Below, piece by piece: positions 2,370 to 19,216 of a DNA stretch of 32,028 nt. The notes under the pieces were generated by a model. The model saw nothing but the letters and a program-made list of their open reading frames with translations. It did not search any database and had not been told where the DNA came from. Every line of letters begins with the position of its first letter. The stretch's first letter is position 1. The DNA is taken from IMG/VR virus record IMGVR_UViG_2534681701_000015, one strand, 5' to 3'. This stretch comes from a virus (Duplodnaviria; Heunggongvirae; Uroviricota; Caudoviricetes). A program made the position numbers and the translations under genes.

Positions 2370-2956
2370 TTAATTGAATATCATTTTGTCTTTTGTCTTT
2401 TGTCTTTTGTCTTCATAAGGGAAAAACTTTGACAGAAATCTCCTGACTTTTTTGAATCGTAATTTTTTTACCTTCTCTTCATCCATTTCAATGGGAGATA
2501 ATGAAGGGGCTAAGTAATTATGTACGCGAACATACCATTTTTTATTGCTGATTATATTGAATAGCTGCTCGTGATATTTATCAAAAAGATATCCTAGTTG
2601 TTCTATTTTTTTTGCGCGCAGATATGTTTCTGAAACACTGATCCAACAGGTAAGGTTTGCTTTTGGTAGTATTTTGCCCTGTACTTTAATTCCAAAAAAT
2701 ATAATTATGATACAAAGACAAGTAAAAGCCAATGTATCTTCGTTAAAACCGAGTATCCAAGGGATCGGTTTTATCGGGAAAACACTTAGCAAAACCTTAG
2801 AATATATAACTGTTAATATTGTTGATATAAAAAGATAATGAATGCTAAATTAAATTTAGATATGCGTAACCTTAAATCAACACGTCTCTCATCCGTTAAG
2901 AGAGTATACCAAGCAATAAGTATGGCGAAGACTGCTAGTAAACCATTGGCACCCAT
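2370..2956 (-). CDS. Putative multi-pass membrane protein (about 195 aa if joined), apparently frameshifted at an A5/T5 run
   Basis: ORF 2370-2792 begins at TTG with no in-frame ATG/GTG before the upstream stop at 2850-2852; a 47-aa ORF (ATG 2956, SD GAGGTG, stop 2813-2815) lies in the -1 frame; joining at the A run 2829-2833 gives hydrophobic segments LLAVFAILIAWYTLL, FNLAFIIF..ILTVIY and LAFTCLCIIIIFFGI followed by a basic tail. Confidence 0.45.
2384..2411. repeat. Tandem heptanucleotide repeat (TTTTGTC)x4 inside the 3' end of the membrane-protein gene
   Basis: Four perfect head-to-tail copies at 2384-2411; on the coding strand this is GACAAAA x4, encoding the KRQKTKDK C-terminus. Confidence 0.9.
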
Positions 2957-4968: not shown

Positions 4969-7414
<2,446 letters not shown>

Positions 7415-7471
7415 TCACTTAAATAAGTGATAGTCTTAATACTAGTTTTTAGACTAGTCATTGGAGAACAG

Positions 7472-7837
7472 ATGATTGATGTCTTAGGGCCGGAGAAACG
7501 CAGACGGCGTACCACACAGGAAAAGATCGCAATTGTTCAGCAGAGCTTTGAACCGGGGATGACGGTCTCCCTCGTTGCCCGGCAACATGGTGTAGCAGCC
7601 AGCCAGTTATTTCTCTGGCGTAAGCAATACCAGGAAGGAAGTCTTACTGCTGTCGCCGCCGGAGAACAGGTTGTTCCTGCCTCTGAACTTGCTGCCGCCA
7701 TGAAGCAGATTAAAGAACTCCAGCGCCTGCTCGGCAAGAAAACGATGGAAAATGAACTCCTCAAAGAAGCCGTTGAATATGGACGGGCAAAAAAGTGGAT
7801 AGCGCACGCGCCCTTATTGCCCGGGGATGGGGAGTAA
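7472..7837 (+). CDS. insC: IS2 OrfA (InsC), HTH protein
   Basis: [41 protein letters not shown]...; A6G slippery run at 7789-7795. Confidence 0.9.
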
Positions 7838-8700
7838 GCTTAGTCAGCCGTTGTCTCCGGGTGTCGCGTGCGCAGTTGCACGTCATTCTCAGACGAACCG
7901 ATGACTGGATGGATGGCCGCCGCAGTCGTCACACTGATGATACGGATGTGCTTCTCCGTATACACCATGTTATCGGAGAGCTGCCCACGTATGGTTATCG
8001 TCGGGTATGGGCGCTGCTTCGCAGACAGGCAGAACTTGATGGTATGCCTGCGATCAATGCCAAACGTGTTTACCGGATCATGCGCCAGAATGCGCTGTTG
8101 CTTGAGCGAAAACCTGCTGTACCGCCATCGAAACGGGCACATACAGGCAGAGTGGCCGTGAAAGAAAGCAATCAGCGATGGTGCTCTGACGGGTTCGAGT
8201 TCTGCTGTGATAACGGAGAGAGACTGCGTGTCACGTTCGCGCTGGACTGCTGTGATCGTGAGGCACTGCACTGGGCGGTCACTACCGGCGGCTTCAACAG
8301 TGAAACAGTACAGGACGTCATGCTGGGAGCGGTGGAACGCCGCTTCGGCAACGATCTTCCGTCGTCTCCAGTGGAGTGGCTGACGGATAATGGTTCATGC
8401 TACCGGGCTAATGAAACACGCCAGTTCGCCCGGATGTTGGGACTTGAACCGAAGAACACGGCGGTGCGGAGTCCGGAGAGTAACGGAATAGCAGAGAGCT
8501 TCGTGAAAACGATAAAGCGTGACTACATCAGTATCATGCCCAAACCAGACGGGTTAACGGCAGCAAAGAACCTTGCAGAGGCGTTCGAGCATTATAACGA
8601 ATGGCATCCGCATAGTGCGCTGGGTTATCGCTCGCCACGGGAATATCTGCGGCAGCGGGCTTGTAATGGGTTAAGTGATAACAGATGTCTGGAAATATAG
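7795..8700 (+). CDS. insD: IS2 OrfB (InsD), transposase catalytic domain, made as an OrfAB fusion by -1 frameshift
   Basis: 301-aa ORF with DDE integrase-like core, overlapping the end of insC in the -1 frame. Confidence 0.9.
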
Positions 8701-10286: not shown

Positions 10287-10979
10287 TTAATTGTGTCGCT
10301 TAAGGGTTTGTGACTGGCTGATTAAGACCTTTCCAAAGACCATAAACCGGTGTTCATTTTCGCTGGTAATTCCCCATTCACGGTAAATCTGGTTATCAGA
10401 AATCACCAGTAGTTTGTCAGGTATCATTTGCAGTCGTTTGACATAAATTTTATCATCAAAACCAAATACATAGATACCATCTCCATCAAACTGATTGATA
10501 CTGACATCAACGAAGATGAGATCTCCTGGCTCAATGGTTGGACACATACTGTCCCCACGAACGTTGATAACTTTAATGTGATTGGCTGGTCGTCCGCCAA
10601 ACATCGATACAGCATTATCAGTTCTGTATTCAATGGCATGAATCACATCAATGACATCACCGCCCTGGATAAGGCCATTTCCCGCACTGGCACTGACATC
10701 CAGCATTTCAATACGGAATACATCCTTCACCTGCGCAACATCCTCACTAATACTGTTTTTACATACAGTATTACTTTTGAAGTCTGAGGTAAAGAGATCA
10801 GCAATATCAACACCTAAACTCCTGGCAATATTACTCAGGGCTTGTTCAGTGAATTGTTTCTGCTTACCTGTTTCCAGGCGCGAGATATTCGCCGCATCCA
10901 CTCCTATTGCTTCAGCGAGATCGGCGATTTTCATGTTCTTCGCCTGGCGAAGTTGTCTGACTCGATTTCCTATGTTCAT
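10287..10979 (-). CDS. cI: CI-type prophage repressor (XRE HTH + S24 LexA-like autopeptidase)
   Basis: 230 aa; N-terminal HTH (KIADLAEAIGVDAANISRLETGK), Ala-Gly cleavage site (SASAGNG), catalytic Ser in GDSM and Lys in VKRL. Confidence 0.9.
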   Translation of the reverse strand: MNIGNRVRQLRQAKNMKIADLAEAIGVDAANISRLETGKQKQFTEQALSNIARSLGVDIADLFTSDFKSNTVCKNSISEDVAQVKDVFRIEMLDVSASAGNGLIQGGDVIDVIHAIEYRTDNAVSMFGGRPANHIKVINVRGDSMCPTIEPGDLIFVDVSINQFDGDGIYVFGFDDKIYVKRLQMIPDKLLVISDNQIYREWGITSENEHRFMVFGKVLISQSQTLKRHN

Positions 10980-11337: not shown

Positions 11338-11874
11338 GCATCACTGGAAAGTGGAAAAACAACCTGAGTGGTACGTGAAAGCTATCAGAAAAACTATCGC
11401 GGCATTGCCAGGTGGTTACGCTGAAGCTGCTGACTGGCTGGATGTAACAGAGAACGCATTATTTAACCGGCCGATGGCGATCAGTTTTTTCCGTTGGGAT
11501 GGGCAATGGTTTTACAGCGTGCGGCTGGTACTCACCACATTGCGGATGCTGTCGCACAGTCTGCTGGTGGGGTGTTTGTATCACTTCCTGAAATTGAGGA
11601 AGTAGAGAACGCCGATATAAACCAGCGCCTGCTGGAAGTCATCGAACAGATCGGGAGTTACTCAAAGCAGATTCGTTCGGCAATCGAAGACGGGGTAGTG
11701 GAGCCACATGAGCAGACAGCAATTAATGATGAGTTGTATCTGTCGATTTCGAAGCTCCAGGAACATGCGGCACTGGTCTACAAAATTTTCTGCGTTCCAG
11801 AAAAGAGTGACGCCCGCGAGTGTGCAGCTCCGGGCGTCGTGGCGTTTTGTGTCTGTGGAGAAACTAACGCATGA
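11330..11874 (+). CDS. CII-like early regulator (CP76/YdaT-type position), with an apparent -1 frame break at a T6 run
   Basis: GTG 11330 preceded by GGAGG; the frame is coherent to the T run 11485-11490 then continues in the -1 frame to TGA 11872-11874; the C-terminus of the first ORF (FYSVRLVLTTLRMLSHSLLVGC...) looks non-coding. Confidence 0.45.
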
Positions 11875-12199
11875 ACAGTTTAACGGCAAATAACCGTTGG
11901 TCGCAACAGCTGGTGGTCCGCGTGGCTGAACACCTGTTGTTACGGCATGAATGCAGATTACCAAATCACCTGGCTGTAAGTAACCACAGAGAACTTTACC
12001 TGACTGTGGGGGGCGAGTTGTGCAGGAACTTAACCGCTGGTTTCGTGACGGAAGAGGACTTTATGTTCATGTTATTCGTTGGGAGCCAGAAACACAGCGC
12101 GTTATCTATCTTCGCAAAGACTACCCGCATGAGTGCTTTAGTCCTTTGTGGAAATTCAGGCGTGATTTTGTTGAGTGTGAAGGACCACCAGCACATTGA
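11871..12199 (+). CDS. Hypothetical small early protein, apparent -1 frame break at a G6 run (about 108 aa if joined)
   Basis: ATG 11871 overlaps the upstream stop (ATGA); frame breaks at G run 12008-12013; the -1 frame continues to TGA 12197-12199 (..VQELNRWFRDGRGLYVHVIRWEPETQRVIYLRKDYPHECFSPLWKFRRDFVECEGPPAH). Confidence 0.35.
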
Positions 12200-12284
12200 T
12201 TCTGCCATTCCGGGACGTTACACTGTTCAGGCACCTTATAAAGCGGGTGCCGGGCGTGGAAACCCGGAATTCACCAAAGCGCAC

Positions 12285-12308
12285 AACCGCGCTCTTGCGG
12301 TTTTTTTG
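12285..12308 (+). terminator. Intrinsic terminator inside the early-right operon
   Basis: AACCGC-GCTCTT-GCGGTT hairpin followed by T7 (12301-12307). Confidence 0.5.
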
Positions 12309-12476
12309 TGTCATGAGCAGCATTACGCCCAAATTATGGTGGGGCGTGCAGGGCCAACTTCGGTTGGGCCGGGTTCTTTGGTGACCGGTATTTCCACCCC
12401 TGTACGTCTCACCACCAATAAGGTCGTGGAAAGCCTTGGTGGTGAGTTATTTAAAATCACCAAAGAGGCTGCCATC

Positions 12477-13022
12477 ATGGCTACGATCCCAACCCTCACT
12501 CAACCTGAAATTGCCATCGTTGATGGTCAGGCTGTTACTTCATCCCTGGCTGTTGCCAACTTCTTCTCCAAACGTCATGACGATGTACTGAAAAAGATCC
12601 GCACGCTTGAATGCTCCGCATCATTCACTGCCCGCAATTTTTCGGTGAGTGATTACACCGATTGCACAGGCCGCAAACTACCTTGCTATCAAATAACCCG
12701 CGACGGCTTTGCGTTTCTTGCTATGGGTTTCACGGGTAAACGTGCTGCCCAGTTCAAAGAGGCATACATCAATGCCTTTAACCAGATGGAGAAACAGCTT
12801 TCAAGGCCCGCTGTACCGAGCGACGTTGCACATAACGCCAGCGTTCTCTGTTCCTACATTTCATCAATTCATCAGGTCTGGCTGCAGCAGCTTTATCCTA
12901 TGTTGGCAAAAGCCGAATCTCCGCTGGCTGTTAGCTTATATGACTATATTAATGATGCTTCGGCGCTGGCCTGCCTCATAAATTTGTCGCTGAACCCTTC
13001 AGAGGTAAGGGGGCGCAAATGA
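12477..13022 (+). CDS. rha: Rha-family phage regulatory protein
   Basis: ATG 12477 with SD AGAGG 8 nt upstream; N-terminus PTLTQPEIAIVDGQAVTSSLAVANFFSKRHDDVLKKIRTL...YQITRDGFAFLAMGFTGKRAAQFKEAYINAF fits the Rha family; the 383-aa ORF called from 11871 is read-through. Confidence 0.8.
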   Translation: MATIPTLTQPEIAIVDGQAVTSSLAVANFFSKRHDDVLKKIRTLECSASFTARNFSVSDYTDCTGRKLPCYQITRDGFAFLAMGFTGKRAAQFKEAYINAFNQMEKQLSRPAVPSDVAHNASVLCSYISSIHQVWLQQLYPMLAKAESPLAVSLYDYINDASALACLINLSLNPSEVRGRK

Positions 13023-13243
13023 TCCGGAATATTTTCAAACGTTTTACCAATCAGACTTTCCGTTGTCCTCGTCCGGGTCAGTGGTACACCACGCCTGCAG
13101 GGCATGTTCTACGTGTTAGCCTGGTTGACCGTGAATGTCAGAAGGTGGTTTGTGAACCGCTGGGCCGTAATTACCGCGTCAGTATGCCGCTTATAGCCTT
13201 TCGCTCCAGAAAAAACATGAAGCATCTCGGAGGTGCAGCATGA
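13019..13243 (+). CDS. Small Cys-containing hypothetical protein (74 aa)
   Basis: ATGA overlaps with both neighbours (Rha stop, O-like start); contains C-x24-C-x4-C. Confidence 0.45.
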   Translation: MIRNIFKRFTNQTFRCPRPGQWYTTPAGHVLRVSLVDRECQKVVCEPLGRNYRVSMPLIAFRSRKNMKHLGGAA

Positions 13244-14058
13244 GTATGGAGCTGATGGTTAAAGCGATGAAAATTCGAGTGGGTAATCCATTGCGAAAAC
13301 TGGTTCTGATCAAGCTGGCTGATAATGCCAGCGATCAGGGTGAGTGCTGGCCCAGCTACCAGCATATTGCTGACCAGTGCGAGATTAGCAAACGTTCTGT
13401 GATGAATCATATTGCGGCCCTTTGTGAGTCCGGGCTGGTAAAAAAAGTCACCCGGAAAGGTGAAAAAGGTAACTCAAGTAATATCTATCTCCTTCATCTG
13501 GATGGTGCAGGAGATTCACTAGGGGGTAGTGCAAATAATTCACTATCTGGTGCAGCAAATTCACCAGGTAGTGCAGGAGTTGCACCAGGGGGTAGTGCAG
13601 GAGATTCACCCAGAACCAGTCACTCTTTTGAACCAGTCAAAGAACCAGTCAATGAACCAATAGCTGTTGGTGCATCAGTTGATGAGTCCGTGCGAGTTCG
13701 TTCAAACCGACCGGAATATTCTCCGGAGTTTGAGCAGGCATGGCTGGCATATCCCAAACGTGCTGGTGGCAATTCAAAATCTGCAGCCTTCAAAGCCTGG
13801 AAAGCCCGTTTGAATGAGGGGGTAAACCCCGAAACCATGCTGGAAGGTGTGAAACGCTATGCGGGCTGGGTATCTGCAATGGGTAACAGCGGCACACAAT
13901 TTGTGAAACAGGCTGTCACGTTCTTTGGTCCGGATCGTCATTTCGAAGAATCCTGGGAAGTTCCTGCGGTATCTGCAGCCAGACGTGAGGACCCGTACTT
14001 CAAATCCAGTTACGACAACGTGGACTACAGCCAGATCCCGGCAGGATTCAGGGGGTGA
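13240..14058 (+). CDS. Replication initiator, lambda-O-like organisation (N-terminal winged HTH, low-complexity linker encoded by iterons, C-terminal domain)
   Basis: 272 aa; SD GGAGG 6 nt before the ATG; the linker GAGDSLGGSANNSLSGAANSPGSAGVAPGGSAGDSP is encoded by direct DNA repeats. Confidence 0.6.
   Translation: MSMELMVKAMKIRVGNPLRKLVLIKLADNASDQGECWPSYQHIADQCEISKRSVMNHIAALCESGLVKKVTRKGEKGNSSNIYLLHLDGAGDSLGGSANNSLSGAANSPGSAGVAPGGSAGDSPRTSHSFEPVKEPVNEPIAVGASVDESVRVRSNRPEYSPEFEQAWLAYPKRAGGNSKSAAFKAWKARLNEGVNPETMLEGVKRYAGWVSAMGNSGTQFVKQAVTFFGPDRHFEESWEVPAVSAARREDPYFKSSYDNVDYSQIPAGFRG
13504..13651. repeat. Iteron-like direct repeats inside the initiator gene: candidate replication origin
   Basis: Five imperfect ~20-bp repeats (core GT(A)GTGCAG..ATTCACC) at 13504-13610, then three perfect GAACCAGTCA copies at 13613, 13630 and 13642. 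Confidence 0.55.
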
Positions 14059-14060
14059 TC

Positions 14061-14549
14061 ATGAGTCTTTTGAATGACGTTCAGAAATTCATTGAAGCCC
14101 ATCCGGGGTGTACTTCCGGAGACATTGCGGATGCTTTTGCAGGTTACTCACGGCAGCGCGTACTGCAGTCAGCAAGCAAGTTACGTCAGAGTGGGCGTGT
14201 GGCTCACCGTTGTGAAGGGGATACACGCAGACATTTCCCGCGCCTGACTGAGAGAGCGCAGGAGCCGGAACCACAACCAGTTCGTGAAACCAGACCTGTG
14301 CGCAATTTCTATGTCGGCACTAACGATCCCCGGGTGATTTTGTGCCTGACCCGCCAGGCTGAAGAACTGGAGTCAAGAGGCTTATACCGTCGTGCTGCAA
14401 CCGTGTGGATGGCGGCATTCCGTGAAAGCCACTCCCAGCCAGAACGAAACAATTTTCTGGCGCGTCGTGAGCGGTGCTTACGGAAAAGCAGCAAGCGCGC
14501 TGCATCGGGTGAAGAGTGGTATCTGTCAGGGAATTACGTGGGGGCTTAA
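14061..14549 (+). CDS. Hypothetical regulator: N-terminal winged-helix-like region plus C-terminal PerC/Pch-like motif
   Basis: AEELESRGLYRRAATVWMAAF resembles the conserved helix of PerC/Pch regulators; GTG at 14055 is an alternative start. Confidence 0.4.
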   Translation: MSLLNDVQKFIEAHPGCTSGDIADAFAGYSRQRVLQSASKLRQSGRVAHRCEGDTRRHFPRLTERAQEPEPQPVRETRPVRNFYVGTNDPRVILCLTRQAEELESRGLYRRAATVWMAAFRESHSQPERNNFLARRERCLRKSSKRAASGEEWYLSGNYVGA

Positions 14550-15202
14550 TGAGTAATAAATATTGCCAGGCGCTGGTGGAACTGCGGAACAAACCAGCCC
14601 ATGAACTGAAGGACGTGGGCGATCAGTGGCGCACGCCGGACAACATTTTCTGGGGAATTAACACCCTGTTTGGCCCGTTTGTTCTGGATCTGTTCACTGA
14701 CGGTGATAACGCCAAATGTGCTGCGTATTACACGGCGGAAGACAACGCGCTGGCGCATGACTGGTCAGAACGTCTTGCGGAGCTTAAAGGTGCTGCCTTT
14801 GGTAATCCCCCATACAGCCGCGCCAGTCAGCATGAGGGGCAATACATCACCGGCATGCGTTACATCATGAAGCATGCCAGTGCCATGCGTGATAAGGGCG
14901 GGCGCTATGTTTTCCTGATCAAAGCTGCCACCAGCGAAGTTTGGTGGCCGGAAGATGCAGACCATATTGCTTTTATTCGCGGGCGTATTGGTTTTGAACT
15001 GCCTGCCTGGTTTATCCCGAAGGATGAGAAGCAGGTGCCGACAGGAGCGTTCTTCGCTGGTGCTATTGCTGTTTTCGACAAGACCTGGAAGGGACCGGCA
15101 ATCAGCTACATCGGGCGCGATGAACTTGAGGCATGTGGTGAGGCCTTTCTGGCGCAGGTTCGCCAGCAGGCGGAAAAACTGGTCAGGGAGATGGCGGCAT
15201 GA
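14549..15202 (+). CDS. Phage DNA N6-adenine methyltransferase (Dam-like)
   Basis: NPPY catalytic motif (GNPPYS); SD GGGGG before ATG 14549. Confidence 0.8.
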   Translation: MSNKYCQALVELRNKPAHELKDVGDQWRTPDNIFWGINTLFGPFVLDLFTDGDNAKCAAYYTAEDNALAHDWSERLAELKGAAFGNPPYSRASQHEGQYITGMRYIMKHASAMRDKGGRYVFLIKAATSEVWWPEDADHIAFIRGRIGFELPAWFIPKDEKQVPTGAFFAGAIAVFDKTWKGPAISYIGRDELEACGEAFLAQVRQQAEKLVREMAA

Positions 15203-17725: not shown

Positions 17726-17742
17726 TTTTGTGGAGAAAGTTG

Positions 17743-18108
17743 ATGCGTGATATTCAAATGGTTCTTGAACGTTGGGGGGCATGGGTGGCAAATAATCACG
17801 AGGATGTCACCTGGTCGTCTATTGCTGCAGGATTTAAAGGACTAATCCCTTCAAAAGTAAAATCCCGCCCGCAATGTTGTGACGATGACGCGATGATCAT
17901 TTGTGGGTGCATGGCTCGCCTGAAAAAGAACAACAGCGATTTGCACGATTTATTAGTGGATTATTATGTAGGTGGTATGACGTTTATGGCGCTTGCCCGT
18001 AAACATGGGCGTTCTGATTGCTGGGTTGGGCGTTTATTGCAAAAGGCTGAAGGTGTAGTTGATGGCATGTTAATGATGTTAGAAATTGAGCTAGAGATGG
18101 ATCGTTAG
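17743..18108 (+). CDS. Q: Late-gene antiterminator Q
   Basis: ATG 17743 with SD GGAGA; [25 protein letters not shown]... with a Cys cluster; last gene before the lysis region. Confidence 0.8.
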
Positions 18109-18906: not shown

Positions 18907-18982
18907 GGCCCTTTAGCTCAGTGGTGAGAGCGAGCGACTCATAATCGCCAGGTCGCTGGTTCAAATCCAGCAAGGGCCACCA
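18907..18982 (+). tRNA. tRNA with CAU anticodon (ileX/ileZ-like tRNA-Ile2 or Met)
   Basis: Cloverleaf folded by hand: acceptor GGCCCTT/AAGGGCC, D-arm GCTCAGTGGTGAGAGC, anticodon loop CTCATAA, T-loop TTCAAAT, 3' ACCA. Confidence 0.8.
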
Positions 18983-18983
18983 A

Positions 18984-19060
18984 CTGCCACTAGCTCATCA
19001 GGAAAGAGCGTCAACCCTTTAAGTTGAGAGTGCGAGGTTCGAGTCCCCGGTGGCGGTCCA
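18984..19060 (+). tRNA. tRNA-like gene, identity uncertain (anticodon loop CCTTTAA; UUU/Lys if canonical, but C at position 33)
   Basis: Acceptor CTGCCAC/GTGGCGG (one G-U), D-arm GCTC..GAGC, anticodon stem TCAAC/GTTGA, T-arm CGAGG-TTCGAGT-CCCCG (one mismatch), 3' TCCA. Confidence 0.5.
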
Positions 19061-19062
19061 GT

Positions 19063-19138
<76 letters not shown>

Positions 19139-19141
19139 TGT

Positions 19142-19216
<75 letters not shown>

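What the first reader, a model, noticed from the sequence alone, without database searches (positions are those of the whole stretch)
13504..13651. Replication-origin-like iterons embedded in the initiator gene
Five imperfect ~20-bp direct repeats followed by three perfect GAACCAGTCA repeats lie inside the O-like gene, exactly where they encode the low-complexity inter-domain linker. This is the ori-lambda arrangement, so the origin and its binding protein are likely co-encoded here.
Basis: partly seen in the sequence, partly recalled or inferred. Interest (0 to 1): 0.45.

Follow-up and report, generated by a model that had tools for sequence, protein, structure and literature searches.

The report
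Phage replication origin inside its initiator gene
The repeats are real and are very probably the replication origin of this E. coli prophage, placed inside the gene for the protein that binds them; the layout is familiar from phage lambda, but this is a different, very widespread and experimentally unstudied initiator family.

Summary
Five dyad-symmetric sites, GTGCA-N5-TKCAC, lie at 13505-13609, spaced 24/21/21/24 bp (6 hits against 0.16 expected). They are followed by three exact GAACCAGTCA copies. All of this lies in a 272-aa gene (13240-14058) and encodes a predicted disordered linker between an N-terminal winged-helix domain (Pfam HTH_36) and a helical C-domain.

Comparative evidence supports an origin reading:
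- Relatives carry different dyad repeats at the same place.
- The repeat sequence tracks the recognition-helix sequence.
- The N-domain and its repeats move together in natural chimeras.
- Repeat arms are less polymorphic than the spacers between them.

The GAACCAGTCA repeats are not further iterons. They belong to a ~37-50 nt core that is nearly invariant in DNA, including synonymous sites, in phages of Enterobacterales, Pseudomonas, Vibrio, Shewanella and Haemophilus. I read this core as the unwinding or loading element, with lower confidence.

The protein is not a lambda-O family member, and no helicase-loader gene follows it. The module matches the "Eru6" Stx-phage replication type, for which the only survey I found reports no knowledge of the replication proteins. 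No experiment supports any of this yet. Verdict: a new member of a known kind, of moderate interest.

The parts
13240..14058 (+). Initiator gene, 272 aa. It is 98-99% identical in DNA to SfV orf39, mEp460, phage cdtI orf46, Stx2c phages and Stx2a_WGPS2 (the 'Eru6' reference).
   Evidence: ORF list. Pfam HTH_36, 44.1 bits against a cut-off of 25. phrog_270 'replication initiation protein', E = 1.8e-88. Near-identical genes in 69 phage records and in 2713 of 5426 complete E. coli genomes.
13240..13509 (+). N-terminal winged helix-turn-helix domain (aa 1-90). The presumed recognition helix lies around ISKRSVMNHIAAL (aa 49-61).
   Evidence: AF2 pLDDT 80-94, with elements H3-11, H17-29, H40-47, H51-64, E67-73 and E79-85. 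Foldseek returns only generic winged-helix matches, including DnaD-N and the Orc1 winged helix, none with E < 1e-3.
13440..13499 (.). AT-rich left flank of the iteron array (GC 35%, the lowest in 12800-14600). It is a second low-stability zone and an alternative site for unwinding.
   Evidence: Composition profile. The family-wide duplex-stability profile shows a secondary maximum 108-128 bp upstream of the core.
13505..13519 (.). Iteron 1: GTGCAGGAGATTCAC
13529..13543 (.). Iteron 2: GTGCAAATAATTCAC
13550..13564 (.). Iteron 3: GTGCAGCAAATTCAC
13571..13585 (.). Iteron 4: GTGCAGGAGTTGCAC, a perfect 5+5 palindrome
   Evidence: matched on both strands
13595..13609 (.). Iteron 5, the one next to the core: GTGCAGGAGATTCAC. 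In all 54 distinct class-A loci the last site starts exactly 26 nt before the CAC of the core.
13610..13663 (.). Conserved origin core: CCAGAACCAGTCACTCTTTTGAACCAGTCAAAGAACCAGTCAATGAACCAATAG. GAACCAGTCA lies at 13613, 13630 and 13642, with a degenerate copy at 13654. The family-wide invariant part is 13610-13646. GC is 44%, the region is strand-asymmetric, and the single strand has no stable fold.
   Evidence: Same-amino-acid codons are identical in 137/145 cases here against 284/794 in the N-domain; nucleotide identity is 82-95% against 53-66%. Found in more than 120 viral contigs, and about 94 of 110 species-genome hits are true family members. ssDNA fold z = +0.1 and +1.2. It is the least stable 25-bp window in most relatives. 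A recombination junction lies inside it.
13510..13710 (+). Coding region of the predicted disordered linker (aa 91-157). It contains the iterons and the core.
   Evidence: AF2 pLDDT below 50 for residues 91-157. Length varies among alleles in whole repeat units, 242-302 aa.
13711..14055 (+). C-terminal helical domain (aa ~158-272). It is the presumed host-replisome or helicase recruitment domain, and it is exchangeable among relatives.
   Evidence: Helices 162-229 with pLDDT ~70-77. PHROG hits include 'DnaD-like helicase loader' and 'primosomal protein' families. The same domain sits in phiP27 L17, directly upstream of DnaC-like and DnaB-like genes.

Best explanation
Region 13505-13663 is most likely the replication origin (theta type) of this lambdoid prophage's replication module. 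It lies inside the gene of its own initiator.

Proposed mechanism:
1. Dimers of the initiator's N-terminal winged-helix domain bind the five dyad iterons. Because the iterons are spaced about two helical turns apart, they form a phased nucleoprotein complex comparable to the lambda O-some.
2. That complex destabilises the adjacent conserved GAACCAGTCA core at 13610-13663, or the protein binds that core as a single strand. The core would then be where the duplex opens and the helicase enters.
3. The exchangeable C-terminal domain recruits the host helicase, presumably DnaB with DnaC. This module encodes no loader, helicase or primase of its own.
4. The origin sits in the early rightward operon, so transcription reads through it, as in lambda.

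What is shown here: the anatomy, the DNA-level constraint, the covariation of repeat sequence with recognition helix, and the modular inheritance. What is inferred: binding, unwinding at the core, and recruitment of DnaB.
For: 1. Five sites against 0.16 expected. Each is an inverted repeat whose symmetry extends beyond the search pattern (T at -2 in 93/99 sites, A at +16 in 76/99). Spacing is 21 or 24 bp in 176 of 201 intervals across 54 distinct loci.
2. Relatives found through the protein alone carry different dyad repeats at the same place. Examples are GGGCAGGAGCTGCCC x3 in phi24B, and TATGCC-N7-GCACA, GTAGGC..GCCTAC, GTGAAAATTTTGCAC and GTGACAAAATGTCAC in others.
3. Repeat class follows the recognition-helix string. 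A Mantel test gives r = 0.48 for the helix region against 0.22 for the rest of the domain.
4. Natural chimeras carry a foreign N-domain together with its own iterons, joined to this window's C-domain. In L327 the crossover lies inside the core.
5. Among 56 alleles, iteron arms plus centres are polymorphic at 4/75 sites, spacers at 8/32 and third codon positions at 51/220 (Fisher p = 0.006 and 0.0003).
6. In the core, 94% of same-amino-acid codons are identical against 36% in the N-domain. The core is conserved even in hosts with GC of 0.34-0.63.
7. The gene occupies the replication slot of the early right operon, after the cro, cII-like and Rha genes. It belongs to PHROG 270, 'replication initiation protein'.
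8. Viable or inducible phages (cdtI, mEp460, SfV, Ayreon) carry this gene without any loader gene beside it.
9. No other repeat array exists in the window.
10. Precedent: lambda, P22 and L have iterons inside the initiator gene (PMC8022706, PMC7466680).
Against: - There are no experimental data for this family.
- The region after the iterons is only mildly AT-rich (GC 42-45% against about 50% for the gene), and the lowest-GC stretch lies upstream of the iterons.
- No DnaA box lies near it.
- Copy number is very elastic, from 1 to about 9 iterons. An isolated phage, SI8, has a single iteron and no further match to it in the 5.3-kb locus read. A multi-iteron complex may therefore not be strictly required.
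- The stability minimum at the core is partly a consequence of selecting loci by that same sequence.
- The function of the C-domain rests on PHROG labels and gene neighbourhood only. There is no solved homologue, and that domain's model confidence is about 70-77.
Confidence: 0.75

Rival explanations
1. The dyad repeats are binding sites for the gene's own product but do not act as the origin. They could serve autoregulation (a transcriptional roadblock within the early operon) or copy-number control by handcuffing, with replication starting elsewhere in the phage.
For: The covariation and constraint data show binding-site behaviour, not origin firing. The flank is only weakly AT-rich. No DnaA box lies nearby.
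Against: No other repeat array or obvious origin-like region exists in the 32-kb window. The arrangement is that of the mapped origins of lambda and P22 (PMC8022706, PMC7466680). An additional element with invariant DNA abuts the last iteron at a fixed distance, which a pure operator array would not need.
Confidence: 0.1
2. The repeats have no DNA-level function. They are slippage-generated low-complexity coding sequence for a flexible Gly/Ser/Ala linker.
For: The encoded peptide is low-complexity and predicted to be disordered. Copy number varies in whole units, as expected from slippage or unequal crossing-over.
Against: A linker needs neither inverted-repeat symmetry nor ~2-turn phasing. 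Spacers vary freely, including amino-acid changes, while the arms do not. Repeat sequence tracks the recognition helix. Synonymous sites in the core are frozen.
Confidence: 0.03
3. For the GAACCAGTCA core only: it is conserved because it is the shared homology patch at which N-terminal (specificity) and C-terminal (recruitment) modules recombine. Under this reading it has no role in origin opening.
For: The crossover in chimera L327 falls inside the core: 100% identity to phi24B on the left and 99% to the window on the right. C-domains of at least five kinds start just after it.
Against: A ~37-bp patch would decay neutrally like the flanking synonymous sites (36% codon identity) unless it were directly selected. 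It is kept across hosts from GC 0.34 to 0.63. Selection for future recombination is weak compared with a direct function. The two roles are not exclusive.
Confidence: 0.1
4. The protein is a transcription regulator rather than a replication initiator, and the repeats are its operators.
For: Only a generic winged-helix fold is recognisable. RefSeq names it simply 'helix-turn-helix domain-containing protein'.
Against: In relatives the same N-domain is fused to, or followed by, lambda-P-like loaders, DnaC-like and DnaB-like genes, or primase-helicases. The PHROG families matched are all replication initiator or primosomal families. The gene lies where lambdoid phages keep O.
Confidence: 0.02

Closest known systems
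Phage lambda ori and O protein; also the Stx-phage 933W/P27 origins with six iterons
   Same: - Several roughly 19-bp dyad iterons lie inside the initiator gene, in the segment that encodes the linker between the N-terminal DNA-binding domain and the C-terminal domain.
- A less stable region lies immediately downstream.
- Iteron sequence is specific to the initiator.
- The origin lies in the pR operon.
(PMC7466680 and PMC12663957 for lambda; for this locus.)
   Different: - The protein does not match Pfam Phage_rep_O.
- No P gene follows; a PerC-like gene does.
- The downstream element is a near-invariant GAACCAGTCA repeat block of 44% GC, not an ~80% AT tract (the lambda figure is from my own knowledge).
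- There are five iterons, and the number varies from 1 to about 9 among alleles.
P22 gene 18 and phage L gene 18 origins
   Same: These are lambdoid initiators with their own, mutually different repeats inside the coding region: four ~20-bp repeats in P22 and six 11-bp repeats in L. For L the origin is inferred from sequence only (PMC8022706).
   Different: Those modules include a DnaB-type helicase gene (gene 12). I did not compare their sequences with this family. P22-like phages SI8 and SF10 carry the phi24B-type member of the present family instead.
Stx-phage 'Eru' replication units, types Eru5 and Eru6 (PMC8951638)
   Same: The window's initiator is 98.4% identical in DNA to that of Stx2a_WGPS2 (AP012537.1), the Eru6 reference phage. 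Eru6 is defined by a Rha gene followed by an HTH_36 gene, as here. The phi24B-type relative, with HTH_36 plus a primase-helicase, fits the description of Eru5.
   Different: That paper types the units by gene content. It states that there is no knowledge of the proteins involved in Eru replication, and it never mentions iterons or an origin. The origin anatomy described here is therefore additional.
13-mer repeats of the DNA-unwinding element in oriC and iteron plasmids such as RK2 (my own knowledge)
   Same: Short direct repeats with a period of about 12-13 nt lie next to an array of initiator sites. In those systems one strand of the repeats is bound once the duplex has opened. The GAACCAGTCA block has a 12-nt period (13630/13642/13654) and an unstructured single strand.
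   Different: It is not AT-rich, has no GATC and shows no sequence similarity. A role in unwinding is only inferred here.

Membership tests
Lambda-type origin architecture (iterons embedded in the initiator gene) | Three or more direct repeats with internal dyad symmetry inside the initiator ORF | tested here: met
   Five GTGCA-N5-TKCAC sites at 13505-13609, with 0.16 expected by chance. The symmetry extends to 19 bp.
Lambda-type origin architecture (iterons embedded in the initiator gene) | Repeats phased at about an integral number of helical turns | tested here: met
   Spacing is 24/21/21/24 in the window. Across 54 distinct loci, 21 bp occurs 89 times and 24 bp 87 times among 201 intervals.
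Lambda-type origin architecture (iterons embedded in the initiator gene) | Repeats encode the flexible linker between the DNA-binding domain and the recruitment domain | tested here: met
   AF2 gives pLDDT below 50 for aa 91-157, between a confident winged-helix domain (aa 1-90) and a helical C-domain.
Lambda-type origin architecture (iterons embedded in the initiator gene) | Repeat sequence is specific to, and covaries with, the initiator's DNA-binding domain | tested here: met
   A table of helix string against proximal iteron, and Mantel r = 0.48 against 0.22 for the rest of the domain. Chimeras carry the N-domain together with its cognate repeats.
Lambda-type origin architecture (iterons embedded in the initiator gene) | AT-rich unwinding region directly after the iterons | tested here: inconclusive
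   GC is 42-45% at 13600-13679 against about 50% for the gene. The lowest GC (35%) lies upstream, at 13440-13499. The core is the least stable 25-bp window in most relatives, but those loci were selected by that same sequence.
Lambda-type origin architecture (iterons embedded in the initiator gene) | Initiator binds the repeats, and the fragment supports initiator-dependent replication | not testable with these tools
   Needs EMSA or footprinting and a mini-replicon assay.
Lambda-type origin architecture (iterons embedded in the initiator gene) | A dedicated helicase-loader gene (P) follows the initiator gene | tested here: not met
   The next genes are a PerC-like gene (14055-14549), Dam, a LexA-like gene and RusA. 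In phage cdtI the next gene is dam.
Lambda O protein family (Pfam PF04492, Phage_rep_O) | Sequence match to the family model | tested here: not met
   No PF04492 hit at E <= 0.01; the hits are HTH_36, DnaD_N, B-block_TFIIIC and HTH_20. The locus works like lambda O but is not a member by sequence.
HTH_36 / PHROG 270 phage replication initiators | Match above the curated threshold to PF13730, and to the PHROG replication-initiator family | tested here: met
   PF13730 at 44.1 bits against a cut-off of 25. phrog_270 at E = 1.8e-88 over aa 3-271.
DnaD-like proteins (Pfam PF21984, DnaD_N) | Match above the gathering score | tested here: not met
   24.3 bits against a cut-off of 27. Foldseek lists DnaD-N (2v79) only at E about 0.02. 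This is a resemblance of fold, not membership.
Plasmid- or oriC-type iteron origins that depend on DnaA | DnaA box(es) adjacent to the iterons | tested here: not met
   The TTWTNCACA matches in the window are at 334, 2333, 16190, 20002 and 26944. None lies within 2.5 kb of the repeats.

The most novel reading that the evidence does not exclude
The GAACCAGTCA block (13610-13663) is a previously undescribed, near-universal origin core of a very large family of temperate-phage replication modules in Gammaproteobacteria. It would be a DNA element frozen down to its synonymous sites, serving as the duplex-opening or helicase-entry site, or as a site for a conserved host factor. It would also act as the fixed joint at which specificity modules (N-domain plus iterons) and recruitment modules (C-domains paired with a P-like loader, DnaC and DnaB, a primase-helicase, or nothing) are shuffled. 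The family would then offer a readable recognition-helix-to-iteron code. It would also give a defined origin for the non-lambdoid ('Eru5/6'-type) Shiga-toxin phages.
Probability: 0.3. Interest if true: 0.6.

Novelty: new member of a known kind. Interest (0 to 1): 0.4.

Why it matters
- Prevalence. A match to this initiator gene is found in half of complete E. coli genomes (2713 of 5426). Near-identical copies occur in SfV, ST64B, cdtI and many Stx1/Stx2 phages.
- Gap in knowledge. The one survey of Stx-phage replication units I found states that nothing is known about how the non-lambdoid units replicate (PMC8951638). Phage replication drives toxin gene dosage (my own knowledge).
- Testable design. 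A defined origin, a predicted binding code and a conserved core give direct designs for mini-replicons, for incompatibility or interference tests, and for asking how a module with no loader gene captures the host helicase.
- Defence systems. Origin structures are also what some anti-phage systems sense; Lamassu is enriched at the lambda iterons (PMC12663957).
- Limit. The general principle, iterons inside the initiator gene, is textbook, so a specialist would not be surprised by it.

Tried and rejected
- Sigma-70 promoter scan of 12900-14200: no site on either strand. A promoter or antisense-RNA reading of the core is therefore unsupported.
- Rfam: nothing credible in 13300-13900; the only hit was a mir-875 match far below its gathering score.
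- Single-strand folding of the core: no more structure than shuffled sequence (z = +0.1 and +1.2). The iteron array folds somewhat better than shuffles (z = -2.5), as dyads would.
- DnaA boxes: none nearby. Looking for an IHF consensus in the core by eye found none; no tool was run for this.
- A GATC search on L001 was aimed at the wrong source and gave nothing useful.
- PDB sequence search: no homologue. Foldseek against the PDB returned only generic winged-helix hits, none with E < 1e-3, so the C-domain remains uncharacterised.
- NCBIfam: nothing above the cut-offs.
- The search for related loci with an N-domain alignment returned only loci with N-domains 99-100% identical to the window's. 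It was useless for diversity, so I reused those loci for the population-polymorphism test.
- The genome-wide pattern scan has about 16 chance hits among 110, in taxa such as Archaeoglobus and Myxococcus. I recognised them by the absence of the extended core and the N-domain and excluded them.
- Literature: searching for the motif string returned only unrelated papers. I found no paper on the origin of SfV, ST64B, phi24B or Eru-type modules. The SfV genome paper is not held in the library.
- An overlapping-ORF explanation for the frozen synonymous sites was rejected, because all three codon positions are fixed over about 37 nt.
Full report

Yes. Reading 13000-14400 shows five copies of GTGCA-N5-T(T/G)CAC, starting at 13505, 13529, 13550, 13571 and 13595. 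Then come GAACCAGTCA at 13613, 13630 and 13642 and a degenerate copy at 13654.

- The 15-mer pattern has 6 matches in the 32-kb window, because one palindromic site is counted on both strands. All are here, against 0.16 expected from dinucleotide-preserving shuffles, and no shuffle reached 6.
- Tandem Repeats Finder reports periods of 21 and 24.
- A repeat scan of the whole window puts this array first and finds no other iteron-like array.
- The three exact GAACCAGTCA copies are the only exact ones in the window.
- All of this lies in ORF 13240-14058 (+), 272 aa.

**2. What is the gene, and where are we?**

The window is a lambdoid prophage.
- Integrase at 1-1224.
- IS21 (istA/istB, 5161-6962) and an IS3-type element in the early-left region.
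- A cI-like repressor at 10287-10979 (-).
- Then, rightward: a Cro-like HTH, a CII-like gene, a Rha/Ash gene, a small ORF, the gene of interest, a PerC/YfdN-like gene, Dam, a LexA-like gene, RusA, a KilA-N-type gene, DUF968 and Q.
- After that come four tRNAs, lysis genes and the terminase.

The gene matches Pfam HTH_36 (44.1 bits, cut-off 25) and PHROG 270, 'replication initiation protein' (E = 1.8e-88). It does not match the lambda O family.

It is 98-99% identical in DNA to genes of SfV (orf39), mEp460, Ayreon, phage cdtI, many Stx2c phages and Stx2a_WGPS2. ST64B sb42 has an identical N-domain, with the C-domain about 85% identical. Matches to the gene occur in 2713 of 5426 complete E. coli genomes.

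Stx2a_WGPS2 is the reference for the 'Eru6' Stx-phage replication unit. The paper that defines those units says nothing is known about their replication proteins, and it never mentions iterons (PMC8951638).

An AlphaFold2 model built on 23 sequences gives three regions:
- a confident winged-helix domain, aa 1-90, pLDDT 80-94;
- a disordered stretch, aa 91-157, pLDDT below 50;
- a helical C-domain, helices 162-229, pLDDT about 70-77.

Foldseek finds only generic winged-helix relatives. There is no solved sequence homologue.

**3. Are the repeats more than coding low-complexity?**

Four independent lines say yes.

(a) Symmetry and phasing.
- Each repeat is an inverted repeat.
- In 99 unique sites from 54 distinct loci the symmetry extends beyond the search pattern: T at -2 in 93/99 and A at +16 in 76/99.
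- Spacings are almost always 21 or 24 bp.
- The last site always starts 26 nt before the CAC of the downstream core.

(b) Covariation.
- Relatives retrieved by tblastn with the N-domain alone (loci L002-L014) all have a repetitive linker at the same position, but with different dyads. Examples are GGGCAGGAGCTGCCC x3 in phi24B, and TATGCC-N7-GCACA, GTGACAAAATGTCAC and TATGCCAGCAGATAGCAC x4 in others.
- Across 109 distinct combinations, the iteron nearest the core tracks the recognition-helix string:
  - SKRSVMNH goes with TAGTGCA..T(T/G)CAC.
  - DRSTVRKH goes with TGTAGGC..GCA.
  - GRSTVKxH goes with TGGGGCAG..CTGCCC.
  - CSKSAVRxH goes with TATGCC..TGGCA.
  - SRRSVINH goes with TAGTGAAAA..CTGCAC.
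- The Mantel correlation is 0.48 for the helix region and 0.22 for the rest of the domain.

(c) Co-inheritance. Natural chimeras carry a phi24B-type or Klebsiella-type N-domain together with its own repeats, fused to this window's C-domain (P0063 and P0072). In the DNA of one of them (L327), identity is 100% to phi24B up to ...ACCTATCACTCTTTT. It is 99% to the window from GAACCAGTCAAAGAACC onward.

(d) Population constraint. Among 56 distinct alleles of 819 nt, polymorphic sites are distributed as follows:

| Site class | Polymorphic sites |
|---|---|
| Iteron arms plus centres | 4/75 |
| Inter-iteron spacers (also coding) | 8/32 |
| Third codon positions elsewhere | 51/220 |

Fisher p is 0.006 for arms plus centres against spacers, and 0.0003 against third codon positions. 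The peptide is therefore free to vary, and the DNA sites are not.

Copy number is elastic.
- Phage cdtI has a 66-bp insertion that adds three iterons.
- Alleles range from 242 to 302 aa, which is roughly 1 to 9 iterons and 2-5 GAACCAGTCA copies.
- The window's form, 5 iterons plus 3 copies, is the modal one (49 of 71 loci).
- A caveat: the isolated phage SI8 has a single iteron, with no further match in the 5.3-kb locus read.

**4. The GAACCAGTCA block is a separate, conserved element.**

Relatives with only 65-70% identical N-domains and unrelated iterons share the DNA that follows the last iteron: CC AGA ACC AGT CAC TCT Tnn GAA CCA GTC Ann GAA CC.

- Among six independent lineages, codons for identical amino acids are the same codon in 284/794 cases in the N-domain and in 137/145 cases in this 13-codon block.
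- Nucleotide identity is 53-66% in the N-domain and 82-95% in the block. The pairs are not independent, so the p-value is only descriptive.
- Differences occur at replacement positions as readily as at silent ones (TTT/TTA/TCT, AGT/TAT).
- The constraint is therefore on the nucleic acid and not on the peptide. No alternative reading frame could explain about 37 fixed bases.

Scans with CACTCTTNNGAACCAGTCA gave these results.
- More than 120 viral contigs matched. 128 of the 131 matches lie in a long ORF in the same frame, and every protein inspected belonged to this initiator family.
- Of 110 species-representative genomes with a hit, about 94 are true family members. They come from Enterobacterales, Pseudomonas (local GC up to 0.63), Vibrio/Photobacterium, Shewanella, Aeromonas, Haemophilus, Marinobacter and one Thalassospira.
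- About 16 hits are chance matches in unrelated taxa and lack the extended core.

More distant relatives carry variants with the same 12-nt period: GAACCTATCAAT x3 in a Psychrobacter phage and GAATCAGTCAT/GATCCAGTCATA in a Morganella phage.

Properties of the core:
- GC is 44%.
- It is strand-asymmetric.
- Its single strands fold no better than shuffles.
- It holds no promoter, no Rfam family and no DnaA box.
- In 100 non-redundant relatives it is the least stable 25-bp window within +/-450 bp, with a mean z of about +1.1. That result is partly built in by the selection. A second low-stability zone lies just upstream of the iterons (GC 35% at 13440-13499).
- At least five kinds of C-domain begin immediately after it, and a real crossover lies within it.

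**5. How it most likely works.**

Shown: a winged-helix protein family whose recognition helix and adjacent dyad repeats co-vary and are inherited together; DNA-level constraint on the repeats; and a neighbouring invariant block.

Inferred:
- N-domain dimers bind the five phased iterons and build a complex like the lambda O-some.
- The adjacent core is where the duplex opens, where the initiator or a host factor holds a single strand, or both.
- The C-domain brings in the helicase.

On the last point, this module has no loader, helicase or primase gene. The next genes are a PerC-like gene and Dam, and in the inducible phage cdtI the next gene is dam itself. Relatives pair other C-domains with lambda-P-like genes (RothD, S1249), with a primase-helicase (phi24B, SI8), or pair this same C-domain with DnaC-like and DnaB-like genes (phiP27 L17-L19). 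Recruitment of host DnaB, presumably with DnaC, by the C-domain is therefore the most economical reading, but it is untested.

Confidence: about 0.75 that 13505-13663 is the origin. About 0.4-0.5 that the core specifically is the opening or loading element.

**6. Rivals.**

- Binding sites without origin function, such as autoregulation or handcuffing: about 0.1.
- A pure coding linker: about 0.03. Section 3 argues against it.
- The core as a recombination joint only: about 0.1. This is not exclusive of an origin role.
- A regulator rather than an initiator: about 0.02.

**7. Comparison with what is known.**

In function and architecture this is the lambda arrangement, which is also accepted for P22 and, from sequence alone, for phage L (PMC8022706; PMC7466680). 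By sequence the protein is not a member of the lambda O family. It lacks a partner loader gene, and its post-iteron element is a conserved repeat block rather than an AT tract. I found no description of the origin of this family, nor of the core, in the searchable literature. Older subscription papers, such as the SfV genome paper and reviews of phage replication modules, could not be read, so prior mention cannot be excluded.

**8. Verdict.**

It is a new, experimentally uncharacterised member of a known kind of origin. The added, possibly new, observation is an invariant origin core that doubles as the module-exchange joint. Interest is moderate (0.4): unsurprising in principle, but it makes replication of a very common class of prophages, including non-lambdoid Shiga-toxin phages, directly testable.

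Noticed in passing
window 12231-12307 and 12332-12419 (+): Rfam hits above the gathering score to the isrK Hfq-binding RNA (67 bits) and the C4 antisense RNA (83.6 bits). Both lie inside the mechanical 383-aa 'Rha/Ash' ORF 11871-13022. The 5' part of that ORF is therefore probably a P1/P7-type antisense-RNA control region for an antirepressor-like gene rather than coding sequence.
   Followed up: partly
window 18907-19216 (+): A cluster of four tRNA genes, Met(cat), Lys(ttt), Thr(tgt) and Gly(tcc). It lies just downstream of the Q antiterminator gene (17728-18108), the position where Stx phages carry tRNAs upstream of stx.
   Followed up: no
window 5161-6962 (-) and 7427-8700 (+): An IS21-family element (istA with rve/HTH domains, istB with IstB_IS21) and an IS3-type transposase sit in the early-left region of the prophage. 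The prophage may therefore be defective even though its replication module looks intact.
   Followed up: partly
L013:2714-2880 (phage vB_EcoM-689R6) and L135:2240-2420 (phiP27 L17): A more distant HTH_36 initiator subgroup, with an N-domain about 39% identical, has its own linker repeats of roughly 15-nt period: TCTGACCCGTCAAAA and TCTGAACCGTCAGAA. Their unit resembles the GAACCAGTCA unit of the conserved core, which hints that the core repeats could themselves derive from, or act as, protein-binding repeats.
   Followed up: partly
L009:2796-2810 (Salmonella phage SI8); protein alleles P0029 and P0042: Some members have only one or two iterons. SI8 is an isolated phage, and P0029 is seen on 64 contigs. 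Either one site plus the core is enough, or these copies are crippled.
   Followed up: partly
L327 (ENA metagenome contig), gene at 78-860: A natural recombinant initiator. It has the phi24B-type N-domain and iterons and the window-type C-domain and downstream genes (PerC, Dam, LexA-like, RusA). The crossover lies within the ~37-nt core.
   Followed up: yes
window 2384-2413: A perfect tandem repeat, TTTTGTC x4.3, near the start of the region between the integrase and the early-left genes. Its function is unknown.
   Followed up: no
window 10630-10659: An imperfect 9-nt tandem repeat, TCAATGACA x3.3, inside the cI-like repressor gene (10287-10979, minus strand).
   Followed up: no
window 13019-13243 (+): A small 74-aa ORF (phrog_1153, function unknown) whose stop overlaps the initiator's start codon (ATGA). 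The pairing is conserved in phage cdtI (orf45/orf46), so the two may be translationally coupled and the small protein could belong to the replication module.
   Followed up: no
window 13448-13463 (-): A terminator-like hairpin followed by a T-run on the minus strand, just upstream of the iterons. It is a single consensus match and no more frequent than in shuffles.
   Followed up: no
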